Source of the DNA: Actinomycetota bacterium
Lineage (GTDB): Bacteria > Actinomycetota > UBA4738 > HRBIN12
Length of the DNA: 64,000 nucleotides
NCBI GenBank assembly: GCA_005884925.1
Contig: VAYU01000001.1
Location: forward strand, 20,237-84,236
Direction of reading: 5' to 3'
How positions within the stretch are numbered: position 1 is the first letter of the stretch; each line of letters begins with the position of its first letter. The notes under the pieces are model-generated. The model saw only the letters and a program-made list of their open reading frames with translations, did not search any database and was not told the DNA's origin. The translations under genes and the position numbers were made by a program. Positions 1 through 64,000 of this stretch are shown here, one piece after another.

Positions 1-2129
1 GGCTCTGCCTCGGGCGCCTCGACGGTCTTCTTCTTGTCCGCCGACAGCGGCTGCGCCACCTTGCAGTTATCACGGTAGATCGCGACCGCCTTGAGCCCGA
101 GCCGCCAGCTCTCCACGAAGAGCTCCTCGACCTCTTCGACCGTGGCCTCTTCGGGCATGTTCACGGTCTTGGAGATGGCGCCGGAGATGTACGGCTGCGC
201 CGCGGCCATCATCCGCACGTGGCCCATGTAGTGGATGGGCTGCTCCCCCATCGCCGTGTGGAACACCGGGTAGTGCTCGGTCTTGAGATGTGGCGCGTCG
301 GCGACGGAGTTGTGCTCCGCGATGTAAGCCACGATGTCGTCCGTCTGCGCCGCGTCGTACCCCAGCTTCGCGAGCGCGCGCGGGACGGTCTGGTTGACGA
401 ACTGCATCGTGCCGCCGCCGACGAGCTTCTTCGTCTTCACGAGCGCCAGCTCGGGTTCGATGCCGGTGGTGTCGCAGTCCATCATCAGCCCGATCGTGCC
501 GGTCGGAGCCAGCACGCTCGCCTGCGCGTTGCGGTACCCGTGCCGCTCGCCGAGGGCGATCGCCTCGTCCCACGACTGCTTGGCCGCGGAGAGCATCCCC
601 TCGGGCACGAGCTCCGCGTCGATCTGATCCGCCGCCGCGCGGTGCTTGCGCATGACCCGGAGCATCGCGTCGGCGTTGGACGCGTACCCGGCGAAGGGGC
701 CGGTCACCTCCGCGATCCGCGCGCTGGTGCGGTAGGCCCACCCCGTCATGATGGCCGTGATGGCTCCCGCCCAGGCGCGGCCCTGGTCGGAATCGTAAGG
801 GAGCCCGCGGGCCATCAGCAACGCGCCGAGGTTCGCGTAGCCGAGCCCCAGCTGGCGAAAGGCCCGAGCGTTCTCGCCGATCTTGTCGGTCGGATAGTCG
901 GACTCCCCGACCACGATCTCCTGGGCCGTGAAGACGATCTCGGTGGCGTGCCGGAAGCTCCGAACGTCGAAGTTGCCGTCGACGTCGAGGAACTTCATCA
1001 GGTTCAAGCTGGCCAGGTTGCAGGCGCTGTTGTCGAGGTGCATGTACTCGCTGCACGGATTGGAGGCGTTGATCCGGCCGCTCGCCGGGCACGTGTGCCA
1101 CTCGTTGATCGTGGTGTCGTACTGCATCCCGGGGTCCGCGCATTCCCACGCCGCGAGCGCGATGTCGCGCATCAGGTCACGGGCCCGCGTGGTCTCCAAG
1201 GCCTCCCCGGTGGTCACCGCCTTCAGCTTCCAATCGCGGTCCTCCAGGACGGCTTGCATGAACTCATCGGTGACGCGCACGGAGTTGTTGGCGTTCTGGT
1301 ACTGGATGGAGTAGCTGTCGCGGCCGTCCAGGTCCATGTCGAAGCCAGCATCGCGAAGCGCCCGAGCCTTCTTCTCCTCGGTCGCCTTGCACCAGATGAA
1401 GTCGCGAACGTCGGGATGGTCGGCGTCGAGGATGACCATCTTGGCCGCCCGACGCGTCTTGCCGCCCGACTTGATGGTCCCGGCCGAGGCGTCGGCACCC
1501 CGCATGAAGCTGACCGGACCGGAGGCCGTCCCGCCACCCGCGAGGCCCTCCTTCGACGACCGCAGCTTCGTCAGGTTGATGCCGGAGCCCGAGCCGCCCT
1601 TGAAGATGGTCCCCTCTTCCACGTACCAGTTGAGGATCGAGGACATGTGGTCGTCCACCGCGAGGATGAAGCACGCGCTGCACTGCTGCGGCGTGTCGGC
1701 GACGCCGACGTTGAACCACACGGGCGAGTTGAACGCGGCCATCTGGTTCACGAGGAGGTGCGTGAGCTCATCCGCGAAGACCTGTGCGTCGTGCTCGGAG
1801 GCGAAGTACGCGTTCTTGCGACCCCAGCCGGTGATCGTGTCGACCACGCGACCCACGAGCTGCCGTACCGAGGTCTCACGTTGAGGTGTGCCGAGGGTGC
1901 CGCGGAAGTACTTCTGAGCGACGATGTTCGTCGCGTTCTGTGACCACGAGCGGGGGAACTCGACGTCGCGCTGCTCGAAGGCGTTGCCACCCTCCTTGTA
2001 GTTAGGGATCACCGCATCCCTGGTCTCCCATTCGATCCGATCGAACGGATGCGCTCCCTCTTGGGTGAAGAACCGCTTGAAGGTGAGCCCCTCACGGATC
2101 ACCTCGACGTCTCCCTCGCGAGTCGCCAC
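1..2129 (-). CDS. nrdJ: Adenosylcobalamin-dependent (class II) ribonucleoside-diphosphate reductase NrdJ. Partial: the C-terminal part runs off the window start
   Basis: Not in the ORF table, which omits edge-truncated ORFs. My own reverse-complement translation from the GTG at 2129 gives VATREGDVEVIREGLTFKRFF...SPVWFNVG...CSACFILAVDD...GSGSGINLTKLRSSKEGLAGGG, a typical class II RNR N-terminus and active site. A GGAAGGAGGG ribosome-binding site lies 5 nt upstream. It sits directly downstream of nrdR, as in actinobacteria. Confidence 0.85.
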   Translation of the reverse strand, partial: MATREGDVEVIREGLTFKRFFTQEGAHPFDRIEWETRDAVIPNYKEGGNAFEQRDVEFPRSWSQNATNIVAQKYFRGTLGTPQRETSVRQLVGRVVDTITGWGRKNAYFASEHDAQVFADELTHLLVNQMAAFNSPVWFNVGVADTPQQCSACFILAVDDHMSSILNWYVEEGTIFKGGSGSGINLTKLRSSKEGLAGGGTASGPVSFMRGADASAGTIKSGGKTRRAAKMVILDADHPDVRDFIWCKATEEKKARALRDAGFDMDLDGRDSYSIQYQNANNSVRVTDEFMQAVLEDRDWKLKAVTTGEALETTRARDLMRDIALAAWECADPGMQYDTTINEWHTCPASGRINASNPCSEYMHLDNSACNLASLNLMKFLDVDGNFDVRSFRHATEIVFTAQEIVVGESDYPTDKIGENARAFRQLGLGYANLGALLMARGLPYDSDQGRAWAGAITAIMTGWAYRTSARIAEVTGPFAGYASNADAMLRVMRKHRAAADQIDAELVPEGMLSAAKQSWDEAIALGERHGYRNAQASVLAPTGTIGLMMDCDTTGIEPELALVKTKKLVGGGTMQFVNQTVPRALAKLGYDAAQTDDIVAYIAEHNSVADAPHLKTEHYPVFHTAMGEQPIHYMGHVRMMAAAQPYISGAISKTVNMPEEATVEEVEELFVESWRLGLKAVAIYRDNCKVAQPLSADKKKTVEAPEAE

Positions 2130-2139
2130 GTGTTCCCTC

Positions 2140-2172
2140 CTTCCACCGCGGATGAACCCTCAACGGTGTAGT
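2140..2172 (-). promoter_or_regulatory. Conserved motif, copy A (GTTACA-N2-CCTGTCATTCG-N1-GTCTG on the plus strand), in the nrdJ 5' region. It contains the near-palindrome ACAGgtCTGT
   Basis: Almost identical to a second copy at 14941-14970 upstream of recA; seen directly in the sequence. Confidence 0.4.
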
Positions 2173-2256
2173 TACAGACCTGTCATTCGCGTCTGGGCAT
2201 CATGGACCCGACTGCAGCCGACGTCAAGGGGTAGTGGACAGAATCCTTGACGACCG

Positions 2257-2272
2257 CTACATCTAGTATCTC
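2257..2272 (-). promoter_or_regulatory. Putative NrdR box in the nrdR-nrdJ intergenic region (gCTACATCTAGTATCt). A GTAGTGG half-site also lies at about 2232-2238
   Basis: Shares the CTACATCT core with the better box at 2812-2827. NrdR boxes are 16-bp AT-rich palindromes of consensus acaCwAtATaTwGtgt. Confidence 0.35.
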
Positions 2273-2802: not shown

Positions 2803-2811
2803 GGGGATGGG

Positions 2812-2860: not shown

Positions 2861-3205
2861 TCAACCGCCAGCCGGGACCACGAGGACCTGCCCCGGAACG
2901 AGCGTCCCGGCATCGACCTGATTCGCATCGACGATCGCCTGGACGATCCTTCGGGGGTCGTTCCCGGGAGCGTGCCGGAGGGCGATGCTCCACAACGTGT
3001 CCCCGGGCTGGACGACGTACCGATCCGCGGCGCCCGTCCCGCGAGATGGACGACCGGTCACCGGGGCGGAGACGGCCGGCGCGGAGACCGAGAGCGCGAG
3101 GACCAACAGCCCACCCGCGCCGAGACGTCGGCGGCGTACACGCGTCCGGTTCACGACCTGACCTTGCCCGAACGTCTGTTCGGTGTCAAGGGCAGAATCG
3201 AACAT
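2861..3205 (-). CDS. LysM-domain membrane protein, ChiZ-like (M. tuberculosis Rv2719c-type DNA-damage-inducible cell-wall hydrolase and division inhibitor)
   Basis: ORF 2861..3310 (-); the likely start is [10 protein letters not shown] at 3205. It has an Arg-rich N-terminus, a TM segment ([20 protein letters not shown]) and a C-terminal LysM ([13 protein letters not shown]...IVDANQV). It is divergent from lexA with the SOS boxes in between, exactly the nrdR-chiZ-lexA arrangement of mycobacteria. Confidence 0.7.
3169..3182. promoter_or_regulatory. LexA (SOS) box CGAACGTCTGTTCG
   Basis: Perfect GAAC-N4-GTTC Gram-positive/mycobacterial SOS palindrome in the lexA/chiZ-like divergent region. Confidence 0.7.
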
Positions 3206-3266: not shown

Positions 3267-3846
3267 GTGTCTGACATCACTCCCCGGCAGCAGCGGATCG
3301 TGGACTTCATCGCCGAGACCGTGCGCGAGCGCGGCTATCCACCCACCGTTCGCGAGATCGGGGAGGCCGTGGGTCTGACCTCGTCGTCGTCGGTCCACGC
3401 CCAGCTCGCCAACCTCGAACGCGCCGGATTGCTGAAGAAGCGCCGCGGATGCTCGGGTCGAGGCAACGGTCGTGCCCGTGCTCGGCCGCATCGCGGCCGG
3501 CCAGCCCACCCTCGCGAGCGAACATGTCGAGGATTACCTCTCGGTGCCCGCGGAGTTCGTGCGCGGCGGCGATCACTTCGCATTGCGCGTGAGCGGGACG
3601 TCCATGATCGGTGCCGGGATCCTCGACGGAGACGTCGTGGTCGTTCAGAGCCAGGGCTCGGCGAGCGACGGCGACATCGTGGCGGCGCTCCTTCCCGGCC
3701 CCGCCGAGGACGAGGCGACCGTGAAGCGGCTCGGGCACGATGGACCCCGGGTGATGCTGATCCCCGAGAATCTCTCGCTCGAGCCCTTCGAGATGAGCGA
3801 CGGAACGATCTTGGGCAAGGTCGTCGCCGTTCTCAGGCGCCTCTGA
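3267..3846 (+). pseudogene. lexA: LexA repressor, reading frame interrupted by an apparent +1 frameshift near 3440-3450 (authentic pseudogene or sequencing indel)
   Basis: The N-terminal wHTH domain ([60 protein letters not shown]) is in the frame of ORF 3183..4130. The S24 peptidase domain ([12 protein letters not shown]...[17 protein letters not shown]...[10 protein letters not shown]) is in the +1 frame (ORF 3472..3846). The likely true start is the GTG at 3267, preceded by GAGGAGG. Confidence 0.85.
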
Positions 3847-10069: not shown

Positions 10070-10075
10070 GGGTCC

Positions 10076-13247: not shown

Positions 13248-13757
13248 TCAGTCCTCGAACGCCTCCACCGCAAGCGCCCTGCGAGCTGCCCGTCCCGCGA
13301 CGTCGGGCGCGTAGCCACGACGCGCGAGCATCCCGTAGAGGCGACGATAGGCAGCGTCGGGTTGGAGCGCTGACAGCGTGGCCGCCTTCGCAGCCGCGAG
13401 GGCGTCCGCCCGTTCTTCCTCACCCCCGACGACCTCATCCAGGACCGCCTCCGCGATGTCCTGGGCGATCCCCGCGGTCCTGAGCCGGCCCGCCACGACG
13501 CGACGCCCTTCTTTCCGGGTGGTGAAGGAATGCTCCGCCACCGCCCGGGCGAATGCCTCGTCGTCGATCAGGCCGACCTCGCCCAGCCGGTCCAGCTCCG
13601 CCCGGATCTCCTCGGAGTCGAACCCCGCCCGTCCCAACCGACGCTCGATCTCCCGTCGGCTCCGCTGGCGTACGGCCAGAAGCCCGAGGGCTCGCTCGTG
13701 TATGTCCTTGCGCGTTCCCGGCTTGCCACGGCCGCGGTCGTGCGACACAGGGCTCAC
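13248..13757 (-). CDS. recX: Recombination regulator RecX
   Basis: 169-aa ORF immediately downstream of recA. The GTG start overlaps the recA stop (GTGA). RecX-like helical repeats are present. Confidence 0.8.
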
Positions 13758-14844
13758 TCCTTGGCTGCGGCCGCCGCGGACTTCGTCTTCGTCTCGGACC
13801 CTTCGTCTTCCACGAGATCGGGGACGATCTGGATCGGCTGATCGTCGTCTTCGGAGAAGCCGGTGAGCCCCACCGCCTCGCGAACCTTCCGTTCGATCTC
13901 ATCGCGGAGATCGATGTGCTCCCCGAGGAACGCGCGCGCGTTCTCACGTCCCTGGCCGAGCTGCTCGCCCTCGTAGGTGAACCATGCGCCGGACTTCTTG
14001 ACGATCTCGAGATCGACGCGGTATCGAGGAGGGACCCTGCCTTCGAGATCCCCTTGCCGTACATGATGTCGAACTCACATTGACGGAAGGGGGGCGCGAC
14101 CTTGTTCTTCACGACCTTGACCCGGGTCCGCGAGCCCACGACGTCGGTCCCATCCTTGAGGTTCTCGATCTTGCGCACGTCCAGCCGGACCGACGAGTAG
14201 AACTTGAGCGCTCGTCCCCCGGGGGTGGTCTCGGGTGAGCCGAACATCACACCGATCTTCTCGCGCAACTGGTTGATGAAGATGGCCGTGGTTTCGAACT
14301 TGGAGAGCGACCCGGCGAGCTTCCGCATGGCCTGGGACATGAGGCGCGCCTGCAGGCCGACGTGGGTATCACCCATCTCTCCCTCGATCTCCGCCCGGGG
14401 CACGAGCGCCGCGACCGAGTCGATGACGACGAGATGCATCGCGCCCGAGCGCACCAGCATGTCCGCGATCTCGAGCGCCTGCTCGCCGGAATCGGGCTGA
14501 CTGACCAGGAGCTCGTCGATGTCGACCCCTAGCTCGCGCGCGTACGTCGGATCGAGTGCGTGCTCGGCGTCGATGAACGCCGCGATCCCGCCCTGGCGCT
14601 GTGCTTCCGCGATGATGTGCAGGCACACGGTGGTCTTGCCCGAGCCCTCCGGACCGAAGACCTCGACGATCCTGCCGCGAGGGATGCCGCCGACGCCGAG
14701 CGCGATGTCGAGCGCCAGCGACCCGGTCGGGATGGTGGTCATCCCCACGTTCATGGGGTGCTCGCCCAGTTTCATCACTGCGCCCTTGCCGTGCTGCTTC
14801 TCGATCTGCTGAAGCGTGACCTCCAGCATCTTCTCGCGGTCCAC
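13754..14844 (-). pseudogene. recA: Recombinase RecA, interrupted by an apparent 1-nt deletion near 14016-14020 (authentic pseudogene or sequencing indel)
   Basis: ORF 13435..14937 (-) reads as perfect RecA ([16 protein letters not shown]...[15 protein letters not shown]) and then becomes nonsense. The genuine C-terminus ([31 protein letters not shown]...AAAKE*) is in another frame and ends at 13754. The likely start is the GTG at 14844, preceded by GGAAGGGGGA. Confidence 0.85.
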
Positions 14845-14940
14845 GCGATCCCCCTTCCGACCCCGGCCCACCCCGGAGGAGGGGCGAGTGAGCGCACCAG
14901 ACGAACGTTCGAGGACGGTAGCGACTGGGTCTGACATAAG

Positions 14941-14985: not shown

Positions 14986-15001
14986 TCGAACGCGTGTTCG
15001 A
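14986..15001. promoter_or_regulatory. LexA (SOS) box TCGAACGCGTGTTCGA upstream of recA
   Basis: Perfect 16-bp mycobacterial-type Cheo-box palindrome, about 140 nt upstream of the recA GTG. Confidence 0.65.
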
Positions 15002-24184: not shown

Positions 24185-24661
24185 ATGAAGCAGCTCGAGC
24201 TTCGTCGCCACGCGCCGCGCGATCCCGCCGCAGATCGATTGTCGGAAGCCGGGCGAGCTCGCGCGATGGAGGTCGGCCGGGCGCATCAGGACGTCGCGTA
24301 CGTGGCCGTGTTCGTCTCACCGGCCGAACGTGCGGCGGAGACCGTGGCGTGGTTCCTTCGGGGAGCCGGGCAGCAGCTCCCCCAAGAGCACTCCGTCGTT
24401 CCTGGACTCGCGGGGAAGGATCAGACCGAAGGTTCCCCCGAGGGCATGGCGATCGGGATCCGCTCGTTGCTCGAGCAGCTCCCGGAGGGTGGACGCGGGC
24501 TCGCGATCAGCCACACCCCGTTCGTCGAGCGAGCGGCGCTCGGCCTGACCGGTCACGAGGTGGAACCGATGCGCGAGTGCGAGGGGCTGCTCATCACGCT
24601 GCGCGACGACGGTGACATCGAGATCGAGGAGCTGCGGCTGCCGGGATCCACGGCCGGATGA
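24185..24661 (+). CDS. Histidine-phosphatase-superfamily protein (SixA-like), putative
   Basis: An RHA/RHG-like motif near the N-terminus and an ISHTPF motif; 158 aa. Its stop overlaps the following start (ATGA). Confidence 0.45.
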   Translation: MKQLELRRHAPRDPAADRLSEAGRARAMEVGRAHQDVAYVAVFVSPAERAAETVAWFLRGAGQQLPQEHSVVPGLAGKDQTEGSPEGMAIGIRSLLEQLPEGGRGLAISHTPFVERAALGLTGHEVEPMRECEGLLITLRDDGDIEIEELRLPGSTAG

Positions 24662-25309
24662 GCATCGCGAGTGGCGCGATCGGGGCGGCGTTCGCGCTTG
24701 GCTTCGCGCTGGGCGCAGCCCCCGGGCCGGTGCAACTGTTGATCCTCTCGGAGACGGCGAAGCGCGGGCTCGAGGGCGGTCTGCGCGTGATGCTCGGCGG
24801 GAACCTGACCCTGTTCTGCATCCTGGTCGTCCTCGCGCTGGGGTTCGCGTCCCTCGACCCCGGGCCCGGCGTGATCAGGACGCTGCAGGTGGTGGGTGGC
24901 CTCTTTCCTCGTGTGGATCGGCGGGGCCGAGCTCCGATCGATCCGTCTCGAGGCCCGGCCCTCGGTGGGCGATCCGTCGCCGAGCGCCGGCGGGCGCCTC
25001 GGACCGACCGCGAAAGGCATCGCGTCGGTGCTGCTCAATCCCGGCGCATGGGTCTTCTTCGCGGCGACCGCTTCGGCAGTGATGGCGAAGGCGACCTCCG
25101 ACGGCGGCACGGGCGCGGCGCTCGCGGCCGCGCTCGCGATGGCCGTCGGCGTCAGCTGCTCGGATCTGGCCTTCACCGTCCTCGGGAGCGGTGGACGACG
25201 GTTGTTCGGCGACGGAGGGTTGCTCTGGATCCGGACGGGACTCGCCGTGCTCCTCGTCGTGATCGGCGCCGCGTTCGTGGTCCAGGGGATCGGCGGTCGA
25301 TCGCCGTGA
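24658..25309 (+). pseudogene. LysE/RhtB-family amino-acid exporter, interrupted by an apparent 1-nt insertion in a T-run near 24903-24908
   Basis: The N-terminus (MSIASGAIGAAFALGFALGAAPGPVQLLIL...QVVGGLF) is in frame 1 (ORF 24658..). The rest (LVWIGGAEL...LLNPGAWVFFAATA...) is in frame 2 (ORF 24896..25309). The junction is ctctttcctc. Confidence 0.65.
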
Positions 25310-25317
25310 GTCGGATC

Positions 25318-26082
25318 TCAGCCGTGCGCGAGCAGGGCGTCGAGCCCGACGGTGAGCCCGGGCCGGTTGGCGACCGTGCGGATCGCCAACAGGACCCCCG
25401 GGATGAACGCGCTCCGGTCGATCGTGTCGTGGCGGAGGATCAGGGTCTGGCCCGGGCCTCCGAAGATCACCTCCTGGTGAGCGAGGAGGCCCGGGAGCCG
25501 GATGCCGTGGACGCGGATCCCGTCGACGTCGGCGCCGCGCGCGCCGGGATGCGCGCCGTCGCCGCCGGGCGCTTCCCACACGCCCGCCCGCGCGGCGCCG
25601 ATCCGTTGCGCCGTCGTGATGGCGGTACCGCTCGGCGCATCCACCTTCCGATCGTGATGCAGCTCGATCACCTCGGCCGCATCGAAATGACGAGCGGCCT
25701 CCTCCGCGAACCGCATCAGCAGCGCGGCGCCGATGGCGAAGTTCGGCGCGACGATGGCGTTGGCCTTGCCGGACCCGGTCAGTCGGCCGATCTCCGCGAG
25801 CCCGTCCTCGCCGATCCCGGTCGTGCCGATCACCATGTGCATCCCGCGTTCGAGACACCACCGCGCGTTCTCGATCACGGACCCCGGAGCCGTGAAGTCC
25901 ACGGCCACATCAACGCCTTCGAGCGCGTCCGTGGACCCCGCGACGACGAGGTCGCCGAGCTCCGTCCCTTCGTGATGAGGATCGACCGCCGCGATCAAGC
26001 GGAGGTCGTCGGCGACGTCCACCGCCCGACAGACCTCGCGGCCCATGCGGCCGGCGGCGCCCAGCACGCCGACGCTCGTCAC
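25318..26082 (-). CDS. dapB: 4-hydroxy-tetrahydrodipicolinate reductase DapB
   Basis: VTSVGVLGAAGRMGREV...; 254 aa from the GTG at 26082, which overlaps the M16 peptidase stop (GTGA). The ORF extends spuriously upstream. Confidence 0.85.
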   Translation of the reverse strand: MTSVGVLGAAGRMGREVCRAVDVADDLRLIAAVDPHHEGTELGDLVVAGSTDALEGVDVAVDFTAPGSVIENARWCLERGMHMVIGTTGIGEDGLAEIGRLTGSGKANAIVAPNFAIGAALLMRFAEEAARHFDAAEVIELHHDRKVDAPSGTAITTAQRIGAARAGVWEAPGGDGAHPGARGADVDGIRVHGIRLPGLLAHQEVIFGGPGQTLILRHDTIDRSAFIPGVLLAIRTVANRPGLTVGLDALLAHG

Positions 26083-27341
26083 ACGAGCGCCCCCGCGAAC
26101 GAGGAAGGCTTCACCGGCCCGAGGACCGTCAGCGTCATCGGTTGCGACAGTACCTGGTGGGCGATGCGGCGGGCATCCTCGAGGGACACCCGCTCGACGC
26201 GACGGAGGATCTCGTCCACCGTGAGGATCTCGCCGTTCGCGATCTCGGACTTCCCCAGCCGCGACATCCGGCCGCCGGGGTCTTCCAACGACAGGACGGT
26301 CGAGCCCTTCACGTGACCCTTGGCGCGTTCGAATTCCTCCGCGCTGAGCTCGCCGTCGCGGATCGCTTCGATCTGCGCCCGCATCAACGCGATGACCTCG
26401 CGAGCCTTGCCCGGCGTCGTGCCGGCGTAGGCCGAGAACAGACCGACCTCCGCGAACTGTGAGTGGAAGCTGTACGCCGTGTACGCGAGCCCCCGCTTCT
26501 CGCGGATCTCCTGGAAGAGCCGCGAAGACATCCCGCCCCCGAGCGCCGTGTTGACGATGAGGAACGCGAACCGTTCCGGATCCGATCGCGCCAACCCGTT
26601 CGTCCCGACCACGATGTGCGCCTGCTCCGTCTTCTTCCGTTGCACGTGCTGGTCCCCCGACGGCTTCGGGGCTCGGGGCGTGTCGCGCAACCGCCACATC
26701 GAGCGGCCCCGGGCCGAGAGCTCGCGACCGGCATCCATGCGCTGGGTGAGCATCCGAACCAGATCATCGTGGCGGACGTTGCCGGCCGCCGCGACCACGA
26801 GGCGGCCGGGGACGTAGTGACGGCGATAGAACCCGCGAACGGATCCGCGCGTCGCCGCGCGGATCCGTTCGCGGGTCCCGAGGATCGGCCGCCCGAGCGG
26901 GTGGCCTGGCCACAGGGTCCGCGTGAAGAGATCGTGGACCACGTCTTCCGGAGAGTCGTCGTGCATGTCGATCTCGGACAGGATCACCTGGCTCTCGGCC
27001 GTGAGATCCTCGGTCCGGATCGTCGAGTGCTGCAGCATGTCAGCGAGATGATCGACGGCCAGCTCCAGATCACGGTCGAGCACGCGCGCGTAGTAGCACG
27101 TGTACTCCTTCGCCGTGAACGCGTTGACATCCCCGCCGACCGCATCGAACGCCTCGGCGATGCCGAGGGCCGTGCGCGTCGCGGTCCCCTTGAACAACAG
27201 ATGCTCGAGGAAGTGGCAATGGCCGCTGATCGCGGGACGTTCGTCGAGCACCCAGAAACCGATCGAGACGGAGCGGATGCTTGGCATCCGCTCCGTCACG
27301 ACGCGCAGCCCCGAGCTGAACTCGGTGCGCGAGATCGGCAT
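26079..27341 (-). CDS. M16 family zinc peptidase (PepR-like; Rv2782c-type, adjacent to pnp)
   Basis: HxxEH inverted zinc motif (HCHFLEHLLFKGT); 420 aa from MPISRTEFSSGLRVVTE. The upstream part of ORF 26079..28274 is Arg-rich noise. Confidence 0.8.
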   Translation of the reverse strand: MPISRTEFSSGLRVVTERMPSIRSVSIGFWVLDERPAISGHCHFLEHLLFKGTATRTALGIAEAFDAVGGDVNAFTAKEYTCYYARVLDRDLELAVDHLADMLQHSTIRTEDLTAESQVILSEIDMHDDSPEDVVHDLFTRTLWPGHPLGRPILGTRERIRAATRGSVRGFYRRHYVPGRLVVAAAGNVRHDDLVRMLTQRMDAGRELSARGRSMWRLRDTPRAPKPSGDQHVQRKKTEQAHIVVGTNGLARSDPERFAFLIVNTALGGGMSSRLFQEIREKRGLAYTAYSFHSQFAEVGLFSAYAGTTPGKAREVIALMRAQIEAIRDGELSAEEFERAKGHVKGSTVLSLEDPGGRMSRLGKSEIANGEILTVDEILRRVERVSLEDARRIAHQVLSQPMTLTVLGPVKPSSFAGALV

Positions 27342-39752: not shown

Positions 39753-41243
39753 TTGGACCACCCGCTGGTGGTACGGCCCGATCGGGACGTCTTCGACCGG
39801 CTGGCGGCGGACTGGCCCCTCGTGCCGGTGTGGGCGGAACTCCTCGCGGATGTCGCCACGCCCGTCTCGGTGTTCCCCGCCGTTGCCGGGGACGGGCCGG
39901 GGATCTTGCTCGAGTCGGTCGAACGATCCGAGCGGTGGGGTCGGTACTCCTTCGTCGCAGGCGATCCCGCCGCGATCATCGTGGTCGACGACGGCGGGCT
40001 CCATCTGCGCGACATCGCGCGGGAGCTCCCCACCGGGGAACCCTCGCGCCGCCTGACGCCGCGTGAGGCCCTCCGCGCCGCGGTGCACCGGCTGCGGGCG
40101 CCACGGGTCGACGGCCTGCCCCCCATCACTGGCGGGCTGATGGGGTACGCGTCGTACGAGGCCGCAACCCTGCTCGACGGGCATCCGGTGCCGCACCCCG
40201 ACGAGGCGCCGTGCCCACCGATCGGGTTCCTCCTGATCGATCGGGCAGCCGTCTTCGACCATTGGCGGCAACGGCTCGTGCTCGTCGCACACGTCCCCGC
40301 CGGCCGCTACGACGACGGCATCCGGGCGCTCGAGGAGCTGGCCGATAAGCTCGCCGGCGCTTCAGGCCTCTCGCTGATGAGCGCCGGGAGCGTCGGCGAG
40401 GCCGACGGCGAGGCAAACATGGACGACGACCGGTACCGCCGGATCGTGTCGGCCTTCAAGGAGCACATCCTCGCGGGAGACATCTACCAGGCGGTCCCGT
40501 CCCGGCGGGTCGCCTTCGACGCGCCCGACGGTGGGCTGCCGATCTACCGACGTCTGCGCGTCTCCAACCCGGCGCCCTACATGTTCTACCTTCGCATGCT
40601 CGGGATGGAGCTCGCAGGGTCCTCGCCCGAGCCGCTCGTTCGCGTCGAGGGGCGGCGCGTCACGGCGCGCCCGATCGCGGGAACCCGGCCCCGAGGCCGG
40701 TCCGACGCCAGCGACCGCCTCCTCGAGCACGAGCTCCTCGCCGACCCCAAGGAGCGCGCCGAGCACGCGATGCTGGTCGACCTCGCGCGCAACGACCTCG
40801 GGCGCGTCTGCGAGCCGGGCACCGTCCGCCCGACCGAGCTCATGCAGGTGGAGCGGTTCTCTCGCGTGATGCACATCGTCTCGACGGTGGAGGGGGACCT
40901 GCGCCACGACATGGAACCCTTCGACGCGCTCGCCGTCACGTTCCCGGCCGGGACCGTGACCGGTGCGCCGAAACGCCGGGCGATGGAGCTGATCGCCGAG
41001 CACGAACCCGACGCTCGCGGCGCCTACGCGGGCGCGGTCGGATACCTAACCTTCGCCGGAGACCTCGACTTCTGCATCACGATCAGGACCGTCGTCGTCA
41101 CGGACGGGATCGCGAGCGTCCAGACGGGTGCGGGTGTCGTGTCCGACTCCGATCCCGAGACCGAGCTCCTCGAAACGAAGGCGAAGGCATCGGCATTGAT
41201 CCCGGCCGTGGCCCCCGCCCCTTCAGGTGACGGCGGGACCTGA
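39753..41243 (+). CDS. trpE: Anthranilate synthase component I TrpE
   Basis: ORF 39645..41243. The likely start is the TTG at 39753 (LDHPLVVRPDRDVF...), 5 nt after GGAGGAG. The chorismate-binding domain is present (LARNDLGRV...GAYAGAVGY). Confidence 0.85.
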   Translation: MDHPLVVRPDRDVFDRLAADWPLVPVWAELLADVATPVSVFPAVAGDGPGILLESVERSERWGRYSFVAGDPAAIIVVDDGGLHLRDIARELPTGEPSRRLTPREALRAAVHRLRAPRVDGLPPITGGLMGYASYEAATLLDGHPVPHPDEAPCPPIGFLLIDRAAVFDHWRQRLVLVAHVPAGRYDDGIRALEELADKLAGASGLSLMSAGSVGEADGEANMDDDRYRRIVSAFKEHILAGDIYQAVPSRRVAFDAPDGGLPIYRRLRVSNPAPYMFYLRMLGMELAGSSPEPLVRVEGRRVTARPIAGTRPRGRSDASDRLLEHELLADPKERAEHAMLVDLARNDLGRVCEPGTVRPTELMQVERFSRVMHIVSTVEGDLRHDMEPFDALAVTFPAGTVTGAPKRRAMELIAEHEPDARGAYAGAVGYLTFAGDLDFCITIRTVVVTDGIASVQTGAGVVSDSDPETELLETKAKASALIPAVAPAPSGDGGT

Positions 41244-42617: not shown

Positions 42618-43181
42618 ATGATCCTCGTGGTGGATCACTACGACAGCTTCACCTTCAACCTTGTCCAGCTGATCGAGAGCCTCGGCCGAGAGACCCGTGT
42701 CGTGAAGTCCGACGAGCGCTCGGCCGAGGAACTGCTCGCGATGCGCCCCGAAGCCGTGGTGCTCTCCCCGGGACCAGGACATCCGCGCGACGCCGGGGTC
42801 TTCACGGAGCTGCTGGCCGAGCTCCCCGCCGAGACACCGATCCTCGGGGTGTGCCTCGGCCACCAGGCGCTAGGGATCGGATCAGGAGGCACCGTGGACC
42901 GTACCGAGCCCGTCCACGGCAAGGCATCCCTCGTGTACCACGAGGGGCGAGGCATCCTCGCGGGCGTCCCGGTGCCCTTCGAAGCGGGTCGATACCACTC
43001 CCTGGTCGTCGAGCGATCGCTCCCCCCGGCGCTCGAGCTCACCGCGTGGACCGAGGAGGGGCTGGTCATGGGTGCCCAGCACCGCGACCTACCCCGCTAC
43101 GGCGTGCAGTTCCATCCCGAATCGATCCTCACGCCCGAGGGACCGCGGATCGTCGAGAATTTCCTCGGATCACGCCCCTGA
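42618..43181 (+). CDS. trpG: Glutamine amidotransferase: anthranilate synthase component II / aminodeoxychorismate synthase component II (TrpG/PabA)
   Basis: MILVVDHYDSFTFNLVQ...GVCLGHQ...HPES; 187 aa from the internal start of ORF 42207..43181. Confidence 0.8.
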   Translation: MILVVDHYDSFTFNLVQLIESLGRETRVVKSDERSAEELLAMRPEAVVLSPGPGHPRDAGVFTELLAELPAETPILGVCLGHQALGIGSGGTVDRTEPVHGKASLVYHEGRGILAGVPVPFEAGRYHSLVVERSLPPALELTAWTEEGLVMGAQHRDLPRYGVQFHPESILTPEGPRIVENFLGSRP

Positions 43182-44158
43182 CGAGGGTGCCGGGCAACCG
43201 GGCCCGTAGGCGAACGCCGCCGACCCGCTCCGGACCCTGCACGCGCGTTCGTCGACGGCGACGAACGCGCTCGCCGGGATCCGCTTCAGCTGATCGATGA
43301 AGCGATAGCTCCAGCGCGGGTCGACCGCACCCTGGAAGTACCAGTCGCTCCCGTTGTCCGCGACGATCAGTCCGTACCGTTTCATCGCCCGGAGGACCAC
43401 ACGCACTTTGGGGCCGAACCGGCCGATGGCGAATGAGGAGCGCAGCCGGAACCGGGCTTCCCTCGGCGGACACCGGCGATCGGTCGTTCCCGCTGCATGT
43501 CGTGCCGCCCAGAGGTAGACGTCGTGCGCGCATCCGACCGTCATCCGGATCGCGTGATCGACCGAGCCGGCCATCACCTCTTCGTAGCGCAGCAGCCCGG
43601 CGAAGATCGGGAGTCCGGCGGCATCGGCGCTCGTCCACCCTGCCGGTCGCAGCCGGTTGGCCCTCGAACCCGTCAGATGGAAGACCGCGCCGCTTCCGGC
43701 CGTTGGGTTGCCACCGTTCCACCTGGCCGCGAACAGCTCGTACAGCGTGCAGTCGCCGCGGTCGATGACGACCGCGTGCCGATCCGAACCGCCCTCGATC
43801 GGGGTGTCGGGGCCGAACGGGTAGGGACCCGGATCGCTCTCGCTCGCGTACGTGAAGCTCACCGACACCTTCGCGTGTCCGGCACTGACCGCGGCTACGG
43901 GATGCCGTACGAGGGTGGTCCGAGATCGGGATGCAAGAACGTCGATCCCGCGTGGGTCGCGCGCTTCCATATGGATGACCCCGCGTTCGCGGGAAGCGCG
44001 GACACGTTCATGTGCCATACGTTGTTGCGCGGGAAGACCGGGCACGTCGTCCCCGGAACCGATCCAGCGGCCGGCGACCCTGGAGCCACCAGCAGGGACG
44101 CGAGCACGCTCGCGACCCCCATCCATGCCGCCCCGCCCCCGCGCATCGTTCTCGTCAT
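43170..44158 (-). pseudogene. Secreted hypothetical protein (Sec signal peptide), apparently frameshifted near 43895-43910
   Basis: ORF 43895..44158 (-) encodes the signal peptide MTRTMRGGGAAWMGVASVLASLLVAPGSPAAG plus about 55 aa and then stops. The protein-like sequence continues in another frame (ORF 43170..44126: ...AAVSAGHAKVSVSFTYASESDPGPYPFGPDTPIEGG...VIDRGDCTLYELFAARWNGG...). Confidence 0.4.
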
Positions 44159-44188
44159 CGGCTCAGGTGACCGCTACGGTTGAGGGCC

Positions 44189-45367
44189 ATGTCCGATGAG
44201 CCCTCGGCTGTGCGCGCGATCGCGTCCAGCCGGACGACCGTGCCGAGCCTGCTGGTGGTGGTTCGGATCCTGGTACTCGCGCTCGTCGTCCTCGGTGCAG
44301 GTCGGCATCCCGTGACCGACGTCCACGTCTTGCACGCCGAGCGGATCGCGACGTCGCCCGCGACCCCGTATCGGAACTTCCCCGTCGCCACGATGCCGTT
44401 GGAGACCGCGACCGATCGCACGATCGGAGGGGCTGGGGCGGCCGCGACCGCCGTCCGGATCGCCATCCTCGCCTTCCTCGCGGACCTCGCCACCGCGGCC
44501 GCGCTCGCGTGGGGATGGGGCCGGCGCCCCGCGATCGTCTACCTGGTGCTCGGACTACCGCTCCTGTCGTTCATCTACCTCCGGTTCGATCTGGTCTCGG
44601 TGGCCCTGGCGGCGTGGGCCGTCGCCTGGACGAGGCATCGGGGAGAGGCCCTGGGCGGAGCGGCCCTGGGCGTCGCCGTGATGGCGAAGCTCTGGCCGTT
44701 GGTGCTCGCGCCGATCCTGTGGACGCGCCGGGCCTGGCGCCCCGCCGCCGCCGGCTTCGCGGTCGTCGTGTTCGTGCTCGGAGCCTGGTGGTACCTCACG
44801 GGGGGCCCCAAGGGTCCCTTCCAGGTGCTGTCCTCCGCCGACGTCCGCGGTTGGCATGTCCAAAGCGTCGTCGGCTCGGTGCTCTGGATCGCTGGTCGCG
44901 GCATCCCGGTCCCCGAGGCAGACGCGCTCCGGATCGGCTTCGCCGCCATATGGATGAAGGCCGTCCTGTTCCTCGGGCTGCTCGGGTGCGAGGTCGCGAT
45001 CTGGCGCCGTGCCGCCGGACCGGATCACGATCCGGCCGGCGGCACGGCGCTTGCCGCCGTCGTCGCGCTCGTCGTCTTCTCCCCGCAGTTCTCGATGCAA
45101 TACGCCGCGTGGTTCCTGCCATGGACGGCCCTCGCCTTCGAAGGGGACGAAGGCGATGGGCGCACCGCGACGATCGCGGCCGTCGTGGCGGTGCTCACGG
45201 GACTGATCGCCCTCGCATGGCCCGACCAGGTGGCCGCACCGACCGGCTGGGTGAAGCTCCTCGTCCTGGCGCGGAACGTCGCGACGATCGGGGTCGTGAT
45301 CAGCTGGTTCGCGACTGCGCGTGTGCCTTCGCCGAGCGAGCGGAGCGGTGCGCGCGTGTCAGCCTGA
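44189..45367 (+). CDS. Polytopic membrane protein, DUF2029/GT87-like (polyprenol-phosphate-sugar-dependent glycosyltransferase-like)
   Basis: 392 aa; 9-10 predicted TM helices; W-rich periplasmic loops. Confidence 0.5.
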   Translation: MSDEPSAVRAIASSRTTVPSLLVVVRILVLALVVLGAGRHPVTDVHVLHAERIATSPATPYRNFPVATMPLETATDRTIGGAGAAATAVRIAILAFLADLATAAALAWGWGRRPAIVYLVLGLPLLSFIYLRFDLVSVALAAWAVAWTRHRGEALGGAALGVAVMAKLWPLVLAPILWTRRAWRPAAAGFAVVVFVLGAWWYLTGGPKGPFQVLSSADVRGWHVQSVVGSVLWIAGRGIPVPEADALRIGFAAIWMKAVLFLGLLGCEVAIWRRAAGPDHDPAGGTALAAVVALVVFSPQFSMQYAAWFLPWTALAFEGDEGDGRTATIAAVVAVLTGLIALAWPDQVAAPTGWVKLLVLARNVATIGVVISWFATARVPSPSERSGARVSA

Positions 45368-61062: not shown

Positions 61063-62196
61063 TCAGCCCACCGGCTGAGAGGCGGCTGCCTTGAACGTCC
61101 GCTCGAACCGGCCGCCGATACCGCGTACGAGCCCACGGATCTCGAGGGCGATCAAGACCGTCAACGTGTCCGCGACCGGCATCCCGGCGGCTCTGGCGAC
61201 GGCGCTCGGGAGCATCGACGTGACCAGCGACGCGAGGACCCTGCGCTCGTCGTCGGACAATCCCCGTGGCACGCCCCGCTCTCCGGATCTCCCTCCGGCG
61301 AATCCGAGGTCCTCCAGGAGATCGGCCGTCCCACGGATCATGGTGGCACCGTCGCGGATCAGCCCGAGCGGCGTCTCGGCGAGTGGGCTCGTCACCGGCC
61401 CCGGAACGGCGAAGACATCGAGGCCCAGGTCGACGGCATGTTCGGCGGTGATCCGCGTACCGCTCTTCGCCGCACCCTCGACCACGACGACCCCTCGGCT
61501 GAGCGCCGCGATCAAACGGTTCCGGGCCGGGAAGCGGAACGGCTCGGCCGAGATCCCGGGCGGGTACTCGCTCATCAGCGTTCCCGACGCTTCGATCTGC
61601 TCGAACAGCGCTCGGTTGCTGGCAGGGTGCGAAACGTCGATCCCGCATCCCAGGACGGCGACCGTGACACCGCCAGCGTCGAGCGCCCCTCGATGTGCGG
61701 CGGCATCGATCCCGACCGCACCGCCGCTCACCGTGACGACACCGGCCACGGCCAATCCCCGGCCGAGGTCCGCCGCGACCTCCATCCCCGTGCTCGTCGG
61801 GCGTCGTGACCCGACGACCGCGACGCGGTCATCCCCGTGGTCGAGCACTCGCCCCCGCGCGAAGACGGCGACCGGCGGATCTGCGAGACGCAGGAAGGCC
61901 GGGGCATAATCGGGATCTCCGGGCGCCGCGAACCTGGCGCCCGCGCGATCGAGGCCGCGGCGGATCGCGCCGACATCCGCGTCCTGAAGGAACGCCCGGT
62001 CGTTGTCCGACCCGGCGCCGCCGGTCCGGATGCGGGCCAGAGCACGGGAGGCGCTTCCGGTTGTCCAGATGAGCGCATGCAGGGAACGCGGTGTCGGTCC
62101 GAGCAAGCAGCGGAGGAGCAGGAGTGCATCGGTCTCCCCCGGGCCGCGGCCGAATCCGTCGGGGAACCCGGCGGGCACCGGCGTCTCAGCCGGCAC
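61063..62196 (-). CDS. dprA: DNA-processing protein DprA
   Basis: Rossmann-fold DprA core (VAVVGSRRPTSTGMEVAADLGRGLA...VSGGAVGIDAAAHRGAL) and a C-terminal wHTH. The start is uncertain: GTG about 62196, or the ATG at 62277 which would overlap comM by 92 nt. Confidence 0.75.
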   Translation of the reverse strand: MPAETPVPAGFPDGFGRGPGETDALLLLRCLLGPTPRSLHALIWTTGSASRALARIRTGGAGSDNDRAFLQDADVGAIRRGLDRAGARFAAPGDPDYAPAFLRLADPPVAVFARGRVLDHGDDRVAVVGSRRPTSTGMEVAADLGRGLAVAGVVTVSGGAVGIDAAAHRGALDAGGVTVAVLGCGIDVSHPASNRALFEQIEASGTLMSEYPPGISAEPFRFPARNRLIAALSRGVVVVEGAAKSGTRITAEHAVDLGLDVFAVPGPVTSPLAETPLGLIRDGATMIRGTADLLEDLGFAGGRSGERGVPRGLSDDERRVLASLVTSMLPSAVARAAGMPVADTLTVLIALEIRGLVRGIGGRFERTFKAAASQPVG

Positions 62197-63724
62197 GCGC
62201 CAGCCCCGCGTCCTGCTCGAACGCGGTCCGATAGGACAGTGCCTCTGCCACGTGGCGTTCGGAGACCCGATCGGCACCCGCCAGATCGGCGACCGTCCGC
62301 GCGACCTTGATCACCCGATCGAAACCACGCCCGGTGAGCGCCATGTGGTCGACCGCTCTACCGAGCAATCGTTCGGCATCCGTGCACAGCTGGGCCTCGC
62401 GGCGCGCGATCGGCCCGGGGAGGTGGGCGTTGCAGGTGATCCCGAGGGCCGCGTAGCGCCGCTGCTGCCGATCGCGCGCCGCGATCACCCGATCGCGGAC
62501 GATCGCCGAGGGCTCGCCGGCGGATGCGCCGAGCAACTCGTCCTTGGTGAGACGCGGGATCGTCAGCCGAAGGTCTATCCGGTCGAGCAACGGTCCGGAG
62601 AGTTTCTGTCGGTACCGGTCCACTTGATCGGGGCGACAGCGACACGACCGTTGTGGGTCAGCCCAGAACCCGCACGGACACGGGTTGGCCGCGGCCACGA
62701 GGGTGAATCGAGCTGGGAACGAGACCGATCCGCCGGCGCGCGTGACGACGATCCGTCCATCCTCGAGGGGTTGGCGGAGCGCCTCGATGGCGTCGCGTCG
62801 GAACTCGGTCAGCTCATCCAGGAACAGCACTCCCCGGTGCGCCAGGCTGGCTTCCCCCGGCCGAAGCACCGTGGAACCACCGCCGAGGAGACCCGCGGTG
62901 GACACCGAGTGGTGTGGCGCGCGGAACGGCCGCTCGCGGAGGAGTCCACGCCCGGCGAGCAGCCCCGCCACCGAGTGCAACTGGGTGGCCTCGAGCGCCT
63001 CCTCTCGGGTGAGATCCGGGAGGATCGTCGGGAGGCGCCGGGCGAGCATGGTCTTGCCGGCTCCGGGTGAGCCGACCATCAGGAGGTTGTGGCCGCCGGC
63101 CGCCGCGACCTCTAGCGCCCGTCGCGCCTCGTCCTGACCGCGCACCTCCGACAGATCCGCAGAGCCCGACGGCACCGGATCGGTGGTCAACGTTCCGATC
63201 TCCGGCGGACGCCAGGTACCGCGCAGGAACCCCACGACCTCGTGGATGGTTGCAACCCCCGTCACGGCGAGGCTGTCCACCTGCGCGGCCTCGACGGCGT
63301 TCGCCGCAGGGACGATGACGCCGCGGAGCCCGCGGCGCGCGGCCGCGATCGCCACCGAGATCACGCCCGGGGTCGGAAGGACCTCCCCCCTGAGCGAGAC
63401 CTCGCCGAAGAAGACATGTCCGGCGGCGGCCTTCGCCGGTACCTGTCGGGTCGCCACCAAGACGCTCACGGCGATGGGGAGGTCGAGACCCGCGCCTTCC
63501 TTCCGAAGGTTGCCGGGGGCGAGGTTGACGACCACCCGGCGGAGCGGCCACTCGAGCTCTGCGTGTTCGACCGCCGGTCTGATCCGATCGCGAGCGTCCT
63601 GGACCGCGGCGCCGGGAAGGCCTGTCACCGTCAACGACGGGAGGCCCCGACCGACGAACGCCTCGACCGTGACCGGGTGACCGCCGACCCCGAGCACGGT
63701 CACACCGATGACCCGTCCGTACAT
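62186..63724 (-). CDS. YifB/ComM-family Mg-chelatase-like AAA+ ATPase
   Basis: Lon-like N-terminal domain, Walker A (GSPGAGKTMLARR), Walker B/sensor regions and a C-terminal domain; 512 aa. Confidence 0.9.
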   Translation of the reverse strand: MYGRVIGVTVLGVGGHPVTVEAFVGRGLPSLTVTGLPGAAVQDARDRIRPAVEHAELEWPLRRVVVNLAPGNLRKEGAGLDLPIAVSVLVATRQVPAKAAAGHVFFGEVSLRGEVLPTPGVISVAIAAARRGLRGVIVPAANAVEAAQVDSLAVTGVATIHEVVGFLRGTWRPPEIGTLTTDPVPSGSADLSEVRGQDEARRALEVAAAGGHNLLMVGSPGAGKTMLARRLPTILPDLTREEALEATQLHSVAGLLAGRGLLRERPFRAPHHSVSTAGLLGGGSTVLRPGEASLAHRGVLFLDELTEFRRDAIEALRQPLEDGRIVVTRAGGSVSFPARFTLVAAANPCPCGFWADPQRSCRCRPDQVDRYRQKLSGPLLDRIDLRLTIPRLTKDELLGASAGEPSAIVRDRVIAARDRQQRRYAALGITCNAHLPGPIARREAQLCTDAERLLGRAVDHMALTGRGFDRVIKVARTVADLAGADRVSERHVAEALSYRTAFEQDAGLARAG

Positions 63725-63790
63725 GCGGCGACGCTACGGCCGAGCGCCGACGCGAACCGTGACGACGATCACACGCCGGTAGCATCGCAG

Positions 63791-64000
63791 CGTGACACCA
63801 GACGGCTTCCCGGTCCCCGACCCCGAACTCCTGGACATCCGTGACGCCGACCGTTCCCGAGCGAGCCTCGAGCGGTTCGGGGCTGCGATCTGGACCGAAG
63901 CCCTCGACTGGCTCTACCACGAGGCGATGGTTCGCCCGATCCAGCGCGAGAGCTATCCGGATTCCCGGGGGCGCTTCTTCGGTCCCTCGAACGAACCCGC
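63791..64000 (+). CDS. Hypothetical protein. Partial: it runs off the window end
   Basis: My own translation from the GTG at about 63791 gives VTPDGFPVPDPELLDIRDADRSRASLERFGAAIWTEALDWLYHEAMVRPIQRESYPDSRGRFFGPSNEP. Composition is non-GC-biased (W, Y, F, I). It is not in the ORF table, which omits edge-truncated ORFs. Confidence 0.3.

What the first reader, a model, noticed from the sequence alone, without database searches (positions are those of the whole stretch)
1..64000. Four independent 1-nt frameshifts in 64 kb: assembly-quality issue or ongoing gene decay
The frameshifted genes are lexA (about 3445), recA (about 14017), a LysE-family exporter (about 24905, a T-run ctctttcctc) and a secreted hypothetical protein (about 43900). 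All sit in otherwise well-conserved ORFs, and three are at short homopolymer or GC runs. A rate of about one per 15 kb is far above that of finished genomes and is typical of uncorrected long-read or low-coverage metagenome assemblies. Alternatively the organism is undergoing pseudogenisation, which fits its extremely compact gene packing. Any annotation of this contig should be frameshift-aware.
Basis: partly seen in the sequence, partly recalled or inferred. Interest (0 to 1): 0.55.

Follow-up and report, generated by a model that had tools for sequence, protein, structure and literature searches.

The report
Four broken genes, two origins
Four genes in this soil actinobacterial contig really are broken: two breaks (an exporter and a secreted protein) recur in every independent assembly of the same population and are ordinary pseudogenes, while the breaks in lexA and recA occur only in this contig and need the original reads to be told apart from assembly errors.

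Summary
All four disrupted genes are at the stated coordinates, and I found no others among about 63 genes. They are not one phenomenon, and they are not all 1-nt changes.

- **LysE:** a +1 T insertion (TTC to TTT-C). Six independent near-identical short-read contigs carry the same allele.
- **Secreted protein:** a 1-nt deletion in a Tyr codon that creates TAG. Two contigs and one read-level protein assembly carry the same allele. These two lesions are real and fixed in the population. Sister lineages (87-88% protein identity) have intact genes.
- **lexA:** a 29-nt deletion, not 1 nt. Six of six other contigs are intact.
- **recA:** loss of one G from an invariant GGC codon, plus a private Glu-to-Ala change 20 nt away. 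Three of three spanning contigs are intact. No public protein carries either out-of-frame tail.

Elsewhere the window matches short-read contigs over 48.9 kb with no other private frameshifting indel. No lesion lies in a base run longer than 3. The "uncorrected long-read or low-coverage" reading is therefore not supported. General genome decay is not supported either: population SNPs are 75% synonymous and coding density is about 96%.

Whether the lexA and recA lesions are a real strain without a working SOS (DNA-damage) response or local assembly defects cannot be settled without reads.

The parts
3267..3846 (+). lexA, disrupted by a 29-nt deletion at junction 3440|3441. The N-fragment holds the DNA-binding domain and then reads out of frame to 4130. 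The C-fragment (3472-3846) holds a complete S24 peptidase domain.
   Evidence: Six of six near-identical contigs (L001, L088-L092) carry the extra 29 nt and an intact 202-aa LexA.
3170..3181 (.). GAAC-N4-GTTC box (SOS/Cheo-box type) 86 nt upstream of lexA.
   Evidence: It is one of only two exact matches in 64 kb. That count alone is not above chance (29 of 100 shuffles had at least 2 matches). The positions at the two SOS gene promoters are what is informative.
13757..14937 (-). recA. One G is lost from the invariant Gly codon GGC (ACC GGC GTC becomes ACC GC GTC) at 14019/14020. A private Glu-to-Ala substitution lies at 14039. The C-terminal domain is thrown out of frame.
   Evidence: (GGN codon in all 39 relatives). 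L093-L095 are intact. L001 and L096 both end at 14018.
14988..14999 (.). GAAC-N4-GTTC box upstream of recA.
24658..25309 (+). LysE-family exporter gene with a +1 T insertion in the run at 24904-24906 (ancestral CTC TTC CTC GTG becomes CTC TTT CCT CGT). The allele is shared by the whole sampled population.
   Evidence: no gap at this site in L097-L102, and each calls only the 137-aa C-fragment; relatives L178-L180 are intact.
43170..44242 (-). Gene for a secreted protein of a large uncharacterised family. A 1-nt deletion in a Tyr codon (CCG TAY GCN becomes CCG TAG CC) lies between 43896 and 43895 and creates TAG at 43897-43895. The allele is shared by the population.
   Evidence: P0006, P0241, P0242; L085 and L086 align without gaps; four of four SNPs in the C-terminal part are nonsynonymous.

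Best explanation
The four lesions fall into two classes.

**Class 1: LysE and the secreted protein.** These are genuine single-base frameshift mutations. They arose after this lineage split from relatives with 87-88% protein identity in these two genes, and before the present strains (97.8% nucleotide identity or more) diversified. They are ordinary fixed pseudogenes in non-essential accessory genes. This part is shown.

**Class 2: the lexA 29-nt deletion, and the recA 1-nt deletion with a neighbouring Glu-to-Ala change.** These exist only in this contig. The contig is otherwise base-for-base concordant with short-read assemblies. A 29-nt deletion with no flanking repeat cannot be invented by k-mer graph traversal. 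I therefore judge them slightly more likely to be true sequence of the sampled strain or subpopulation. That would be a strain with both parts of the SOS circuit inactivated: RecA without its C-terminal domain, and LexA split between its DNA-binding and cleavage/dimerisation domains. This part is inferred, not shown.

My confidence that class 1 is real is about 0.95. My confidence that class 2 is real rather than artefact is about 0.5. The confidence given below is for the whole statement.
For: **Class 1**
- LysE: the window aligns to L097-L102 with no gap at 24905. These six contigs come from six separate assemblies in one JGI and five ENA datasets. L101 is 4054/4054 identical.
- Prodigal-type gene calls on all six contigs give only the 137-aa C-fragment.
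- Intact 216-aa orthologues have CTC TTC CTC at the site.
- Secreted gene: P0006 and P0241 begin with the same 24 out-of-frame residues as the window. P0242, from a read-level protein assembly of SRR5439155, carries the same out-of-frame stretch within a longer out-of-frame lead.
- L085 and L086 align to the window without gaps.
- L086 carries four SNPs in the C-terminal part of the secreted gene, all nonsynonymous. The intact orthologue has CCG TAT GCG.
- If the CRIT18-1 contig names follow SPIRE's convention (my inference), those contigs are per-sample Illumina/MEGAHIT assemblies (PMC10767986).

**Class 2**
- No other private frameshifting indel occurs in 48.9 kb, and all 68 long homopolymers counted in the covered part are concordant.
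- The window carries other clearly genuine private variation: a tract at 26979-27244 with 17 synonymous and 6 nonsynonymous SNPs. It is therefore a distinct strain.
- There is no microhomology at the lexA deletion.
- The only two private frameshifts hit the two partners of a single circuit. Each has the only GAAC-N4-GTTC boxes in the window upstream of it. By my own post hoc calculation, random placement of two lesions over the roughly 39 kb then covered gives about 0.001.
Against: **Against class 2 being real**
- Both lesions are absent from every other assembly: 6/6 for lexA and 3/3 for recA.
- No protein in a collection of about 15 billion sequences carries either out-of-frame tail.
- recA is under strong purifying selection in this population: 21 synonymous changes against 1 nonsynonymous, and that one is the window's own.
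- The recA lesion is a cluster of two rare changes within 21 nt. It sits 1-2 nt from the point where two other assemblies' contigs end (L001 and L096 at 14018). All six contigs that reach recA break inside it. That pattern fits a hard-to-assemble spot.
- The source assembly method and reads are unknown.

**Against class 1 being dead genes**
- SNPs in the LysE C-terminal part are 6 synonymous to 1 nonsynonymous. Five of the six synonymous changes sit in one 66-nt tract of one contig.
Confidence: 0.5

Rival explanations
1. LysE and the secreted gene are real pseudogenes, but the lexA and recA lesions are local assembly, consensus or gap-closing defects. They would have arisen where closely related strains and species share sequence in conserved genes. 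The organism would then have an intact SOS system.
For: - Both lesions are private to this contig.
- recA is a recurrent assembly breakpoint, with contig ends at 14018 (twice), 14090, 14293, 14762 and 14905.
- The deletion and a private substitution at an invariant Glu lie within 21 nt of that shared break.
- The window runs for at least 64 kb through places where short-read contigs fragment. This suggests an extra joining step or a different technology.
- Alignments to more distant relatives often begin at 3454-3475, next to the lexA deletion. That is a boundary between variable and conserved sequence.
Against: - No other private indel occurs anywhere in 48.9 kb, including homopolymers and intergenic DNA.
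- A 29-nt deletion with no flanking repeat is not something a de Bruijn assembler produces.
- None of six other assemblies breaks at lexA.
- Two random defects both falling in the SOS pair has a probability of about 0.001 by my post hoc estimate.
- Sequence motifs around the recA site recur 10-600 times in the covered region without error.
Confidence: 0.4
2. All four frameshifts are sequencing or assembly errors of an uncorrected long-read or low-coverage assembly.
For: - Four frame breaks in 64 kb is high for a finished genome.
- Relatives assembled from long reads do show many such breaks.
Against: - The LysE and secreted-gene alleles are identical in 6 and 3 independent assemblies made with different pipelines.
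- The window has no excess of indels against short-read contigs.
- No lesion is in a long homopolymer.
Confidence: 0.03
3. The organism is undergoing genome-wide reductive pseudogenisation.
For: - Two fixed pseudogenes are present.
- The lysM gene shows a frameshift in two strains and 8 nonsynonymous to 0 synonymous SNPs.
- The four secreted-gene SNPs in its C-terminal part are all nonsynonymous.
Against: - About 59 of 63 genes are intact with full-length domains.
- Population SNPs are 266 synonymous to 89 nonsynonymous.
- Coding density is about 96% with 19 gene overlaps. Decaying genomes show the opposite.
- Two of 63 genes (3%) is within the usual pseudogene fraction of free-living bacteria. 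That comparison rests on my own knowledge and was not tested here.
Confidence: 0.05
4. The LysE break is a programmed +1 ribosomal frameshift. P-site tRNA-Phe would slip from UUU to UUC at CUC UUU CCU, with the rare codon CCU in the A site, so the full-length exporter would still be made.
For: - The site reads CTC TTT CCT C, and a +1 slip restores exactly the conserved ...GGLFLVWIGG... sequence.
- The allele is fixed in all strains.
- SNPs in the C-terminal part are mostly synonymous in the shifted frame, 6 to 1.
Against: - Orthologues with 88% protein identity are single intact ORFs, so the shift is not conserved.
- There is no 0-frame stop for about 470 codons after the site (one search lists ORF 24658..26316).
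- Five of the six synonymous SNPs lie in one short tract of one contig, which looks like a recombination import.
- No stimulatory element was tested.
Confidence: 0.03

Closest known systems
Ordinary bacterial frameshift pseudogenes, as flagged 'frameshifted' by genome annotation pipelines
   Same: A single-base indel breaks an otherwise conserved ORF. Intact orthologues exist in sister lineages. The lesion is inherited by all descendants. In the secreted gene there are signs of relaxed constraint (four of four SNPs nonsynonymous).
   Different: Nothing unusual for LysE and the secreted gene. For lexA and recA, inheritance by other strains is not seen.
Indel artefacts of uncorrected long-read or low-coverage assemblies
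   Same: Genes are split by 1-nt indels, and the lexA and recA lesions are absent from short-read assemblies.
   Different: There is no homopolymer bias and no general excess of indels over 48.9 kb. One lesion is 29 nt long. Two lesions are reproduced by short-read assemblies. Contigs L164 and L187 show what the real artefact looks like, with indels every 100-500 nt.
lexA(Def) recA double mutants of Escherichia coli laboratory strains (named from my own knowledge, not tested here)
   Same: The SOS repressor and its co-protease/recombinase are inactivated together, and LexA boxes lie upstream of both genes.
   Different: Those strains are laboratory constructs. Here the state is inferred from one metagenomic contig, without reads, phenotype or any second observation.
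prfB-type or Ty1-type +1 programmed frameshifting
   Same: The LysE site is a shift-prone XXU-UUY context followed by a rare codon.
   Different: The shift is not conserved in orthologues, no nearby 0-frame stop exists, and no stimulator was shown.

Membership tests
Genuine (inherited) pseudogene | The ORF is disrupted relative to intact orthologues. | tested here: met
   All four genes.
Genuine (inherited) pseudogene | The same lesion is present in independent assemblies or samples of the lineage. | tested here: met
   This row covers LysE and the secreted gene only; lexA and recA have their own row below. LysE: 6 of 6 contigs. Secreted gene: 2 contigs plus 1 read-level protein assembly.
Genuine (inherited) pseudogene | The same lesion is present in independent assemblies (applied to lexA and recA). 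| tested here: not met
   0 of 6 contigs for lexA and 0 of 3 for recA. No out-of-frame tail was found in the protein collection.
Genuine (inherited) pseudogene | Selection is relaxed after inactivation. | tested here: inconclusive
   Secreted gene: four of four SNPs in the C-terminal part are nonsynonymous. LysE: 6 synonymous to 2 nonsynonymous, but the SNPs are not independent. Counts are small.
Long-read or low-coverage indel artefact | Indels are concentrated in homopolymers. | tested here: not met
   There are 112 runs of 5 nt or more, and no lesion lies in a run longer than 3.
Long-read or low-coverage indel artefact | The contig as a whole has an excess of small indels against short-read assemblies of the same strain. 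| tested here: not met
   Over 48.9 kb compared, the only private indels are the two lesions and one in-frame 12-nt indel. Compare L164 and L187.
Long-read or low-coverage indel artefact | The lesion disappears when reads are used to polish the sequence. | not testable with these tools
   Reads and the source record are not available. The source contig was not found in any searched collection.
Programmed ribosomal frameshift | The frameshift is conserved across orthologues. | tested here: not met
   Orthologues of all four genes are single ORFs.
LexA/RecA SOS circuit | LexA has a winged-helix DNA-binding domain and an S24 domain. RecA has its core. LexA boxes lie upstream of both genes. | tested here: met
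   Pfam domains (intact LexA). GAAC-N4-GTTC is found only at 3170-3181 and 14988-14999. Binding itself was not tested.

The most novel reading that the evidence does not exclude
The contig records a natural soil actinobacterial strain in which both parts of the SOS circuit have been knocked out. recA is hit by a frameshift plus a substitution at an invariant Glu. lexA is hit by a 29-bp deletion without microhomology, of the kind left by end-joining repair. This could be lexA loss compensating for a recA defect, or selection against SOS induction.
Probability: 0.35. Interest if true: 0.45.

Novelty: already known. Interest (0 to 1): 0.3.

Why it matters
The practical lesson is that a cluster of frameshifts in one metagenomic contig should not be read as a single phenomenon. 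Cheap comparison with independent assemblies of the same population separated two inherited pseudogenes from two contig-private lesions. It also showed that the contig is not generally error-prone. Annotators should mark the LysE and secreted-protein genes as real pseudogenes. They should treat lexA and recA as "disrupted, unverified".

If the private pair is real, it would be a rare natural example of joint loss of RecA and LexA in a free-living soil bacterium. That has consequences for recombination, mutagenesis and prophage control. A single contig does not establish it.

Tried and rejected
- **Simple GC3 argmax frame plot.** It was too noisy, so I replaced it with a 7-state coding HMM. The HMM mislabelled several real genes as non-coding: dprA, the 5' (low-coordinate) part of the comM-like gene, the M23 peptidase gene, ylxR and the secreted-protein gene. 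Pfam resolved all of these except the secreted-protein gene, which has no Pfam match and was confirmed as a gene by its homologues.
- **Search for the source contig.** Exact look-up of RNase Y found only shorter contigs. CdsA was not on record. The JGI scan gave only relatives at 88-92%. The source is unidentified.
- **Search with the out-of-frame tails of recA and lexA.** No carrier of the same alleles was found. The top hits P0244 and P0246 looked like a recurrent frameshift at the same recA codon, which would have hinted at a systematic error. I rejected this. The query design selects for exactly such cases among many frameshifted RecA sequences. P0244 also comes from a contig riddled with split genes (L187).
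- **Systematic error tied to a methylation or sequence motif at GGCGTCGA, GATC, CCGG or CTCGAG.** Rejected, because 10-670 further copies in the validated region carry no error.
- **Exact mechanics of why L001 and L096 end at 14018.** The end is 1 nt short of what a simple bubble between the window allele and the intact allele would predict. I could not resolve this.
- **A quasi-palindrome template-switch explanation for the recA cluster.** I looked for one by eye and found no supporting complementarity.


Full report
**What the window is.** The window is 69% G+C. It carries a conserved actinobacterial core region, in this order: nrdJ, nrdR, lysM, lexA, SIS, hflX, dapD, an aminotransferase, dapF, miaA, miaB, rny, recX, recA, ligT, cinA..., ftsK, rnj, dapA..., LysE, dapB, an M16 peptidase, pnp, rpsO, ribF..., truB, nrnA, rbfA, infB, ylxR, nusA, rimP, trpE..., trpG, the secreted protein, GT87, ispG..., dxr, cdsA, frr, pyrH, tsf, rpsB..., a sigma factor, xerC, dprA, comM (Pfam; gene calls on matching contigs). 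I count about 63 genes, a coding density of about 96% and 19 gene overlaps. The closest species representatives in GTDB are uncultured Actinomycetota genomes assembled from metagenomes, at about 88% nucleotide identity (L016 and L045).

**Checking the observation.** Six-frame translation and a frame-aware coding HMM show frame switches without a stop or start codon at the four stated places and nowhere else. Every other ORF has full-length Pfam domains.

Comparison with relatives fixes the exact lesions:
- **lexA:** 29 nt are missing between 3440 and 3441 (GATCCGACGAAGCCACGCGCGATGACGCT, encoding the conserved hinge DPTKPRAMT). There is no microhomology at the ends. The claim of a 1-nt frameshift is therefore wrong for this gene.
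- **recA:** one G is missing from a Gly codon that is GGN in all 39 aligned relatives (ACC GGC GTC becomes ACC GC GTC). The complete Pfam RecA core remains in frame and the C-terminal domain is lost.
- **LysE:** a T is inserted (CTC TTC CTC GTG becomes CTC TTT CCT CGT).
- **Secreted protein:** the third base of a Tyr codon is lost (CCG TAT GCG in the relative, CCG TAG CC here). This creates an immediate TAG.

None of the four lies in a base run longer than 3, although the window holds 112 runs of 5 nt or more.

**Independent assemblies of the same population.** Exact-protein look-ups retrieved 26 contigs at 97.5-100% nucleotide identity to the window. They come from at least nine separate assemblies:
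- ENA: ERZ27315254, ERZ27315255, ERZ27293280, ERZ28573530, ERZ28573540 and ERZ28573580.
- JGI: 3300009137 and 3300009012.
- One protein assembled directly from the reads of SRR5439155.

The k141 contig names indicate MEGAHIT. If the CRIT18-1_SAMN... names follow SPIRE's convention (my inference), those contigs are per-sample Illumina/MEGAHIT assemblies with Prodigal gene calls (PMC10767986). Together the contigs cover 48,942 of the 64,000 bases, and 39,510 bases are covered at least twice.

**Class 1: lesions shared by everyone.**
- At LysE, all six covering contigs (L097-L102) align to the window without a gap. All six have only the 137-aa C-terminal fragment called. L101 is identical over 4,054 nt.
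- At the secreted gene, L085 and L086 align without gaps.
- Proteins P0006 and P0241 begin with the same 24 out-of-frame residues as the window (MEARDPRGIDVLASRSRTTLVRHP) before joining the conserved sequence. P0242 carries that same stretch within a longer out-of-frame lead.
- These strains differ from one another by SNPs, so they are not copies of one assembly.
- Intact orthologues exist in sister lineages (P0121, 216 aa, 88% protein identity; P0001, 321 aa, 87%).

Both lesions are therefore real mutations. They arose after the split from those lineages and before the present strains diversified. In L086 the four SNPs in the C-terminal part of the secreted gene are all nonsynonymous, which fits decay. 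For LysE the SNPs are 6 synonymous to 2 nonsynonymous, but five of them sit in one 66-nt tract of one contig. I do not read this as evidence of continued function. A +1 recoding event at CUC UUU CCU is mechanistically conceivable, but it is unsupported because orthologues are unshifted.

**Class 2: lesions private to this contig.**
- All six contigs that cover lexA carry the extra 29 nt and encode an intact 202-aa LexA.
- All three contigs that span the recA site (L093-L095) have GGC. They also have GAA (Glu, invariant in the relatives) where the window has GCA at 14039.
- A search with the out-of-frame tails of both genes found no carrier in a collection of about 15 billion proteins.
- Two further contigs from different samples (L001 and L096) both end at window position 14018, which is 1-2 nt from the deletion. 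All six contigs that reach recA break inside it. recA is clearly a hard spot to assemble in this community.

**Weighing artefact against real mutation for class 2.**

For an artefact:
- The lesions are private to this contig.
- recA is under strong purifying selection in the population (21 synonymous SNPs against 1 nonsynonymous, the latter being the window's own).
- Two rare changes cluster within 21 nt at a recurrent breakpoint.

For real sequence:
- Over 48.9 kb the window has no other private frameshifting indel. The only other private differences are four isolated SNPs and one clearly genuine recombination tract (26979-27244: 17 synonymous and 6 nonsynonymous SNPs plus an in-frame 12-nt indel).
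- All 68 long homopolymers counted in the covered part agree with the short-read contigs.
- Sequence motifs around the recA site recur many times without error.
- A 29-nt deletion without flanking repeats is not a product of k-mer graph traversal.
- The only two private frameshifts fall in the two partners of the SOS circuit. By my own post hoc estimate this has a probability of about 0.001 under random placement. Each gene is preceded by one of the only two GAAC-N4-GTTC boxes in the window.

I cannot separate these without reads. I put real at about 0.5 and local assembly defect at about 0.4.

**What it is not.**
- It is not the signature of an uncorrected long-read assembly. Contigs of relatives that are of that kind show about 10 gap openings per 1.1 kb of recA (L164), or have miaA, miaB and dapF called only as short fragments (L187).
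- It is not genome-wide decay. Population SNPs in intact genes are 266 synonymous to 89 nonsynonymous, and the gene packing is tight.
- Two fixed pseudogenes in about 63 genes is an ordinary fraction for a free-living bacterium. That comparison rests on my own knowledge and was not tested here.

**Verdict.** Two lesions are ordinary inherited pseudogenes. Two are unverified contig-private lesions in lexA and recA, and they deserve a read-level check. Nothing here is a new kind of system.

Noticed in passing
window 2861-3205 (lysM gene); L089 and L090: Population SNPs in this small LysM-domain gene are 8 nonsynonymous to 0 synonymous. Two strains (L089, L090) have a 1-nt deletion at window position 3192 near its start, and the gene is not called there. 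It may be a third decaying or fast-evolving gene in the population.
   Followed up: partly
window 26979-27244 (M16 peptidase gene): This is a window-private divergent tract: 23 SNPs (17 synonymous) plus a 12-nt in-frame deletion against all four covering contigs. It looks like a homologous-recombination import, and it shows that the window is a distinct strain.
   Followed up: partly
window 3170-3181 and 14988-14999: The only two exact GAAC-N4-GTTC boxes in 64 kb lie upstream of lexA and recA. They are presumed LexA operators. The count alone is not above chance (29 of 100 shuffles had at least 2 matches); the positions are what is informative.
   Followed up: partly
window 14018-14905 (recA): Every short-read contig that reaches recA ends inside it: 14018 twice, then 14090, 14293, 14762 and 14905. 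recA is a recurrent assembly breakpoint, probably because co-occurring strains and species share parts of it.
   Followed up: partly
L086, matching window 40664-40841 (trpE): L086 carries a cluster of 21 SNPs in 180 nt against the window, while the flanks are nearly identical. This looks like another recombination tract.
   Followed up: no
L164 (ERZ1370068 contig-7242) and L187 (ERZ25039494 contig_51959): These public contigs of relatives are riddled with 1-nt indels. L164 has about 10 gap openings in its recA, and in L187 miaA, miaB and dapF are called only as short fragments. They are a useful picture of what uncorrected long-read assemblies look like. Many frameshifted RecA and LexA proteins in the public protein collection probably come from such assemblies.
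   Followed up: partly
L016 9891-11442 (GTDB representative MFD09126.bin.1.74): The match to RNase Y spans 1,552 nt, which is not a multiple of three. This suggests a frameshift in rny in that long-read-derived genome.
   Followed up: no
window 43170-44242: The secreted protein belongs to a very large family (7,995 of the 8,000 scored candidates had E of 1e-20 or below) with conserved motifs such as FLHPDFGPPSYGIPY and ESDPGPYP. It has no Pfam or NCBIfam model, so it is a widespread uncharacterised family.
   Followed up: partly
window 14002-14015 (recA, minus strand): A 14-nt perfect palindrome, CGATCTCGAGATCG, lies immediately downstream of the recA deletion. A direct copy of GATCTCGA lies about 38 nt upstream. 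I found no link to the lesion.
   Followed up: partly
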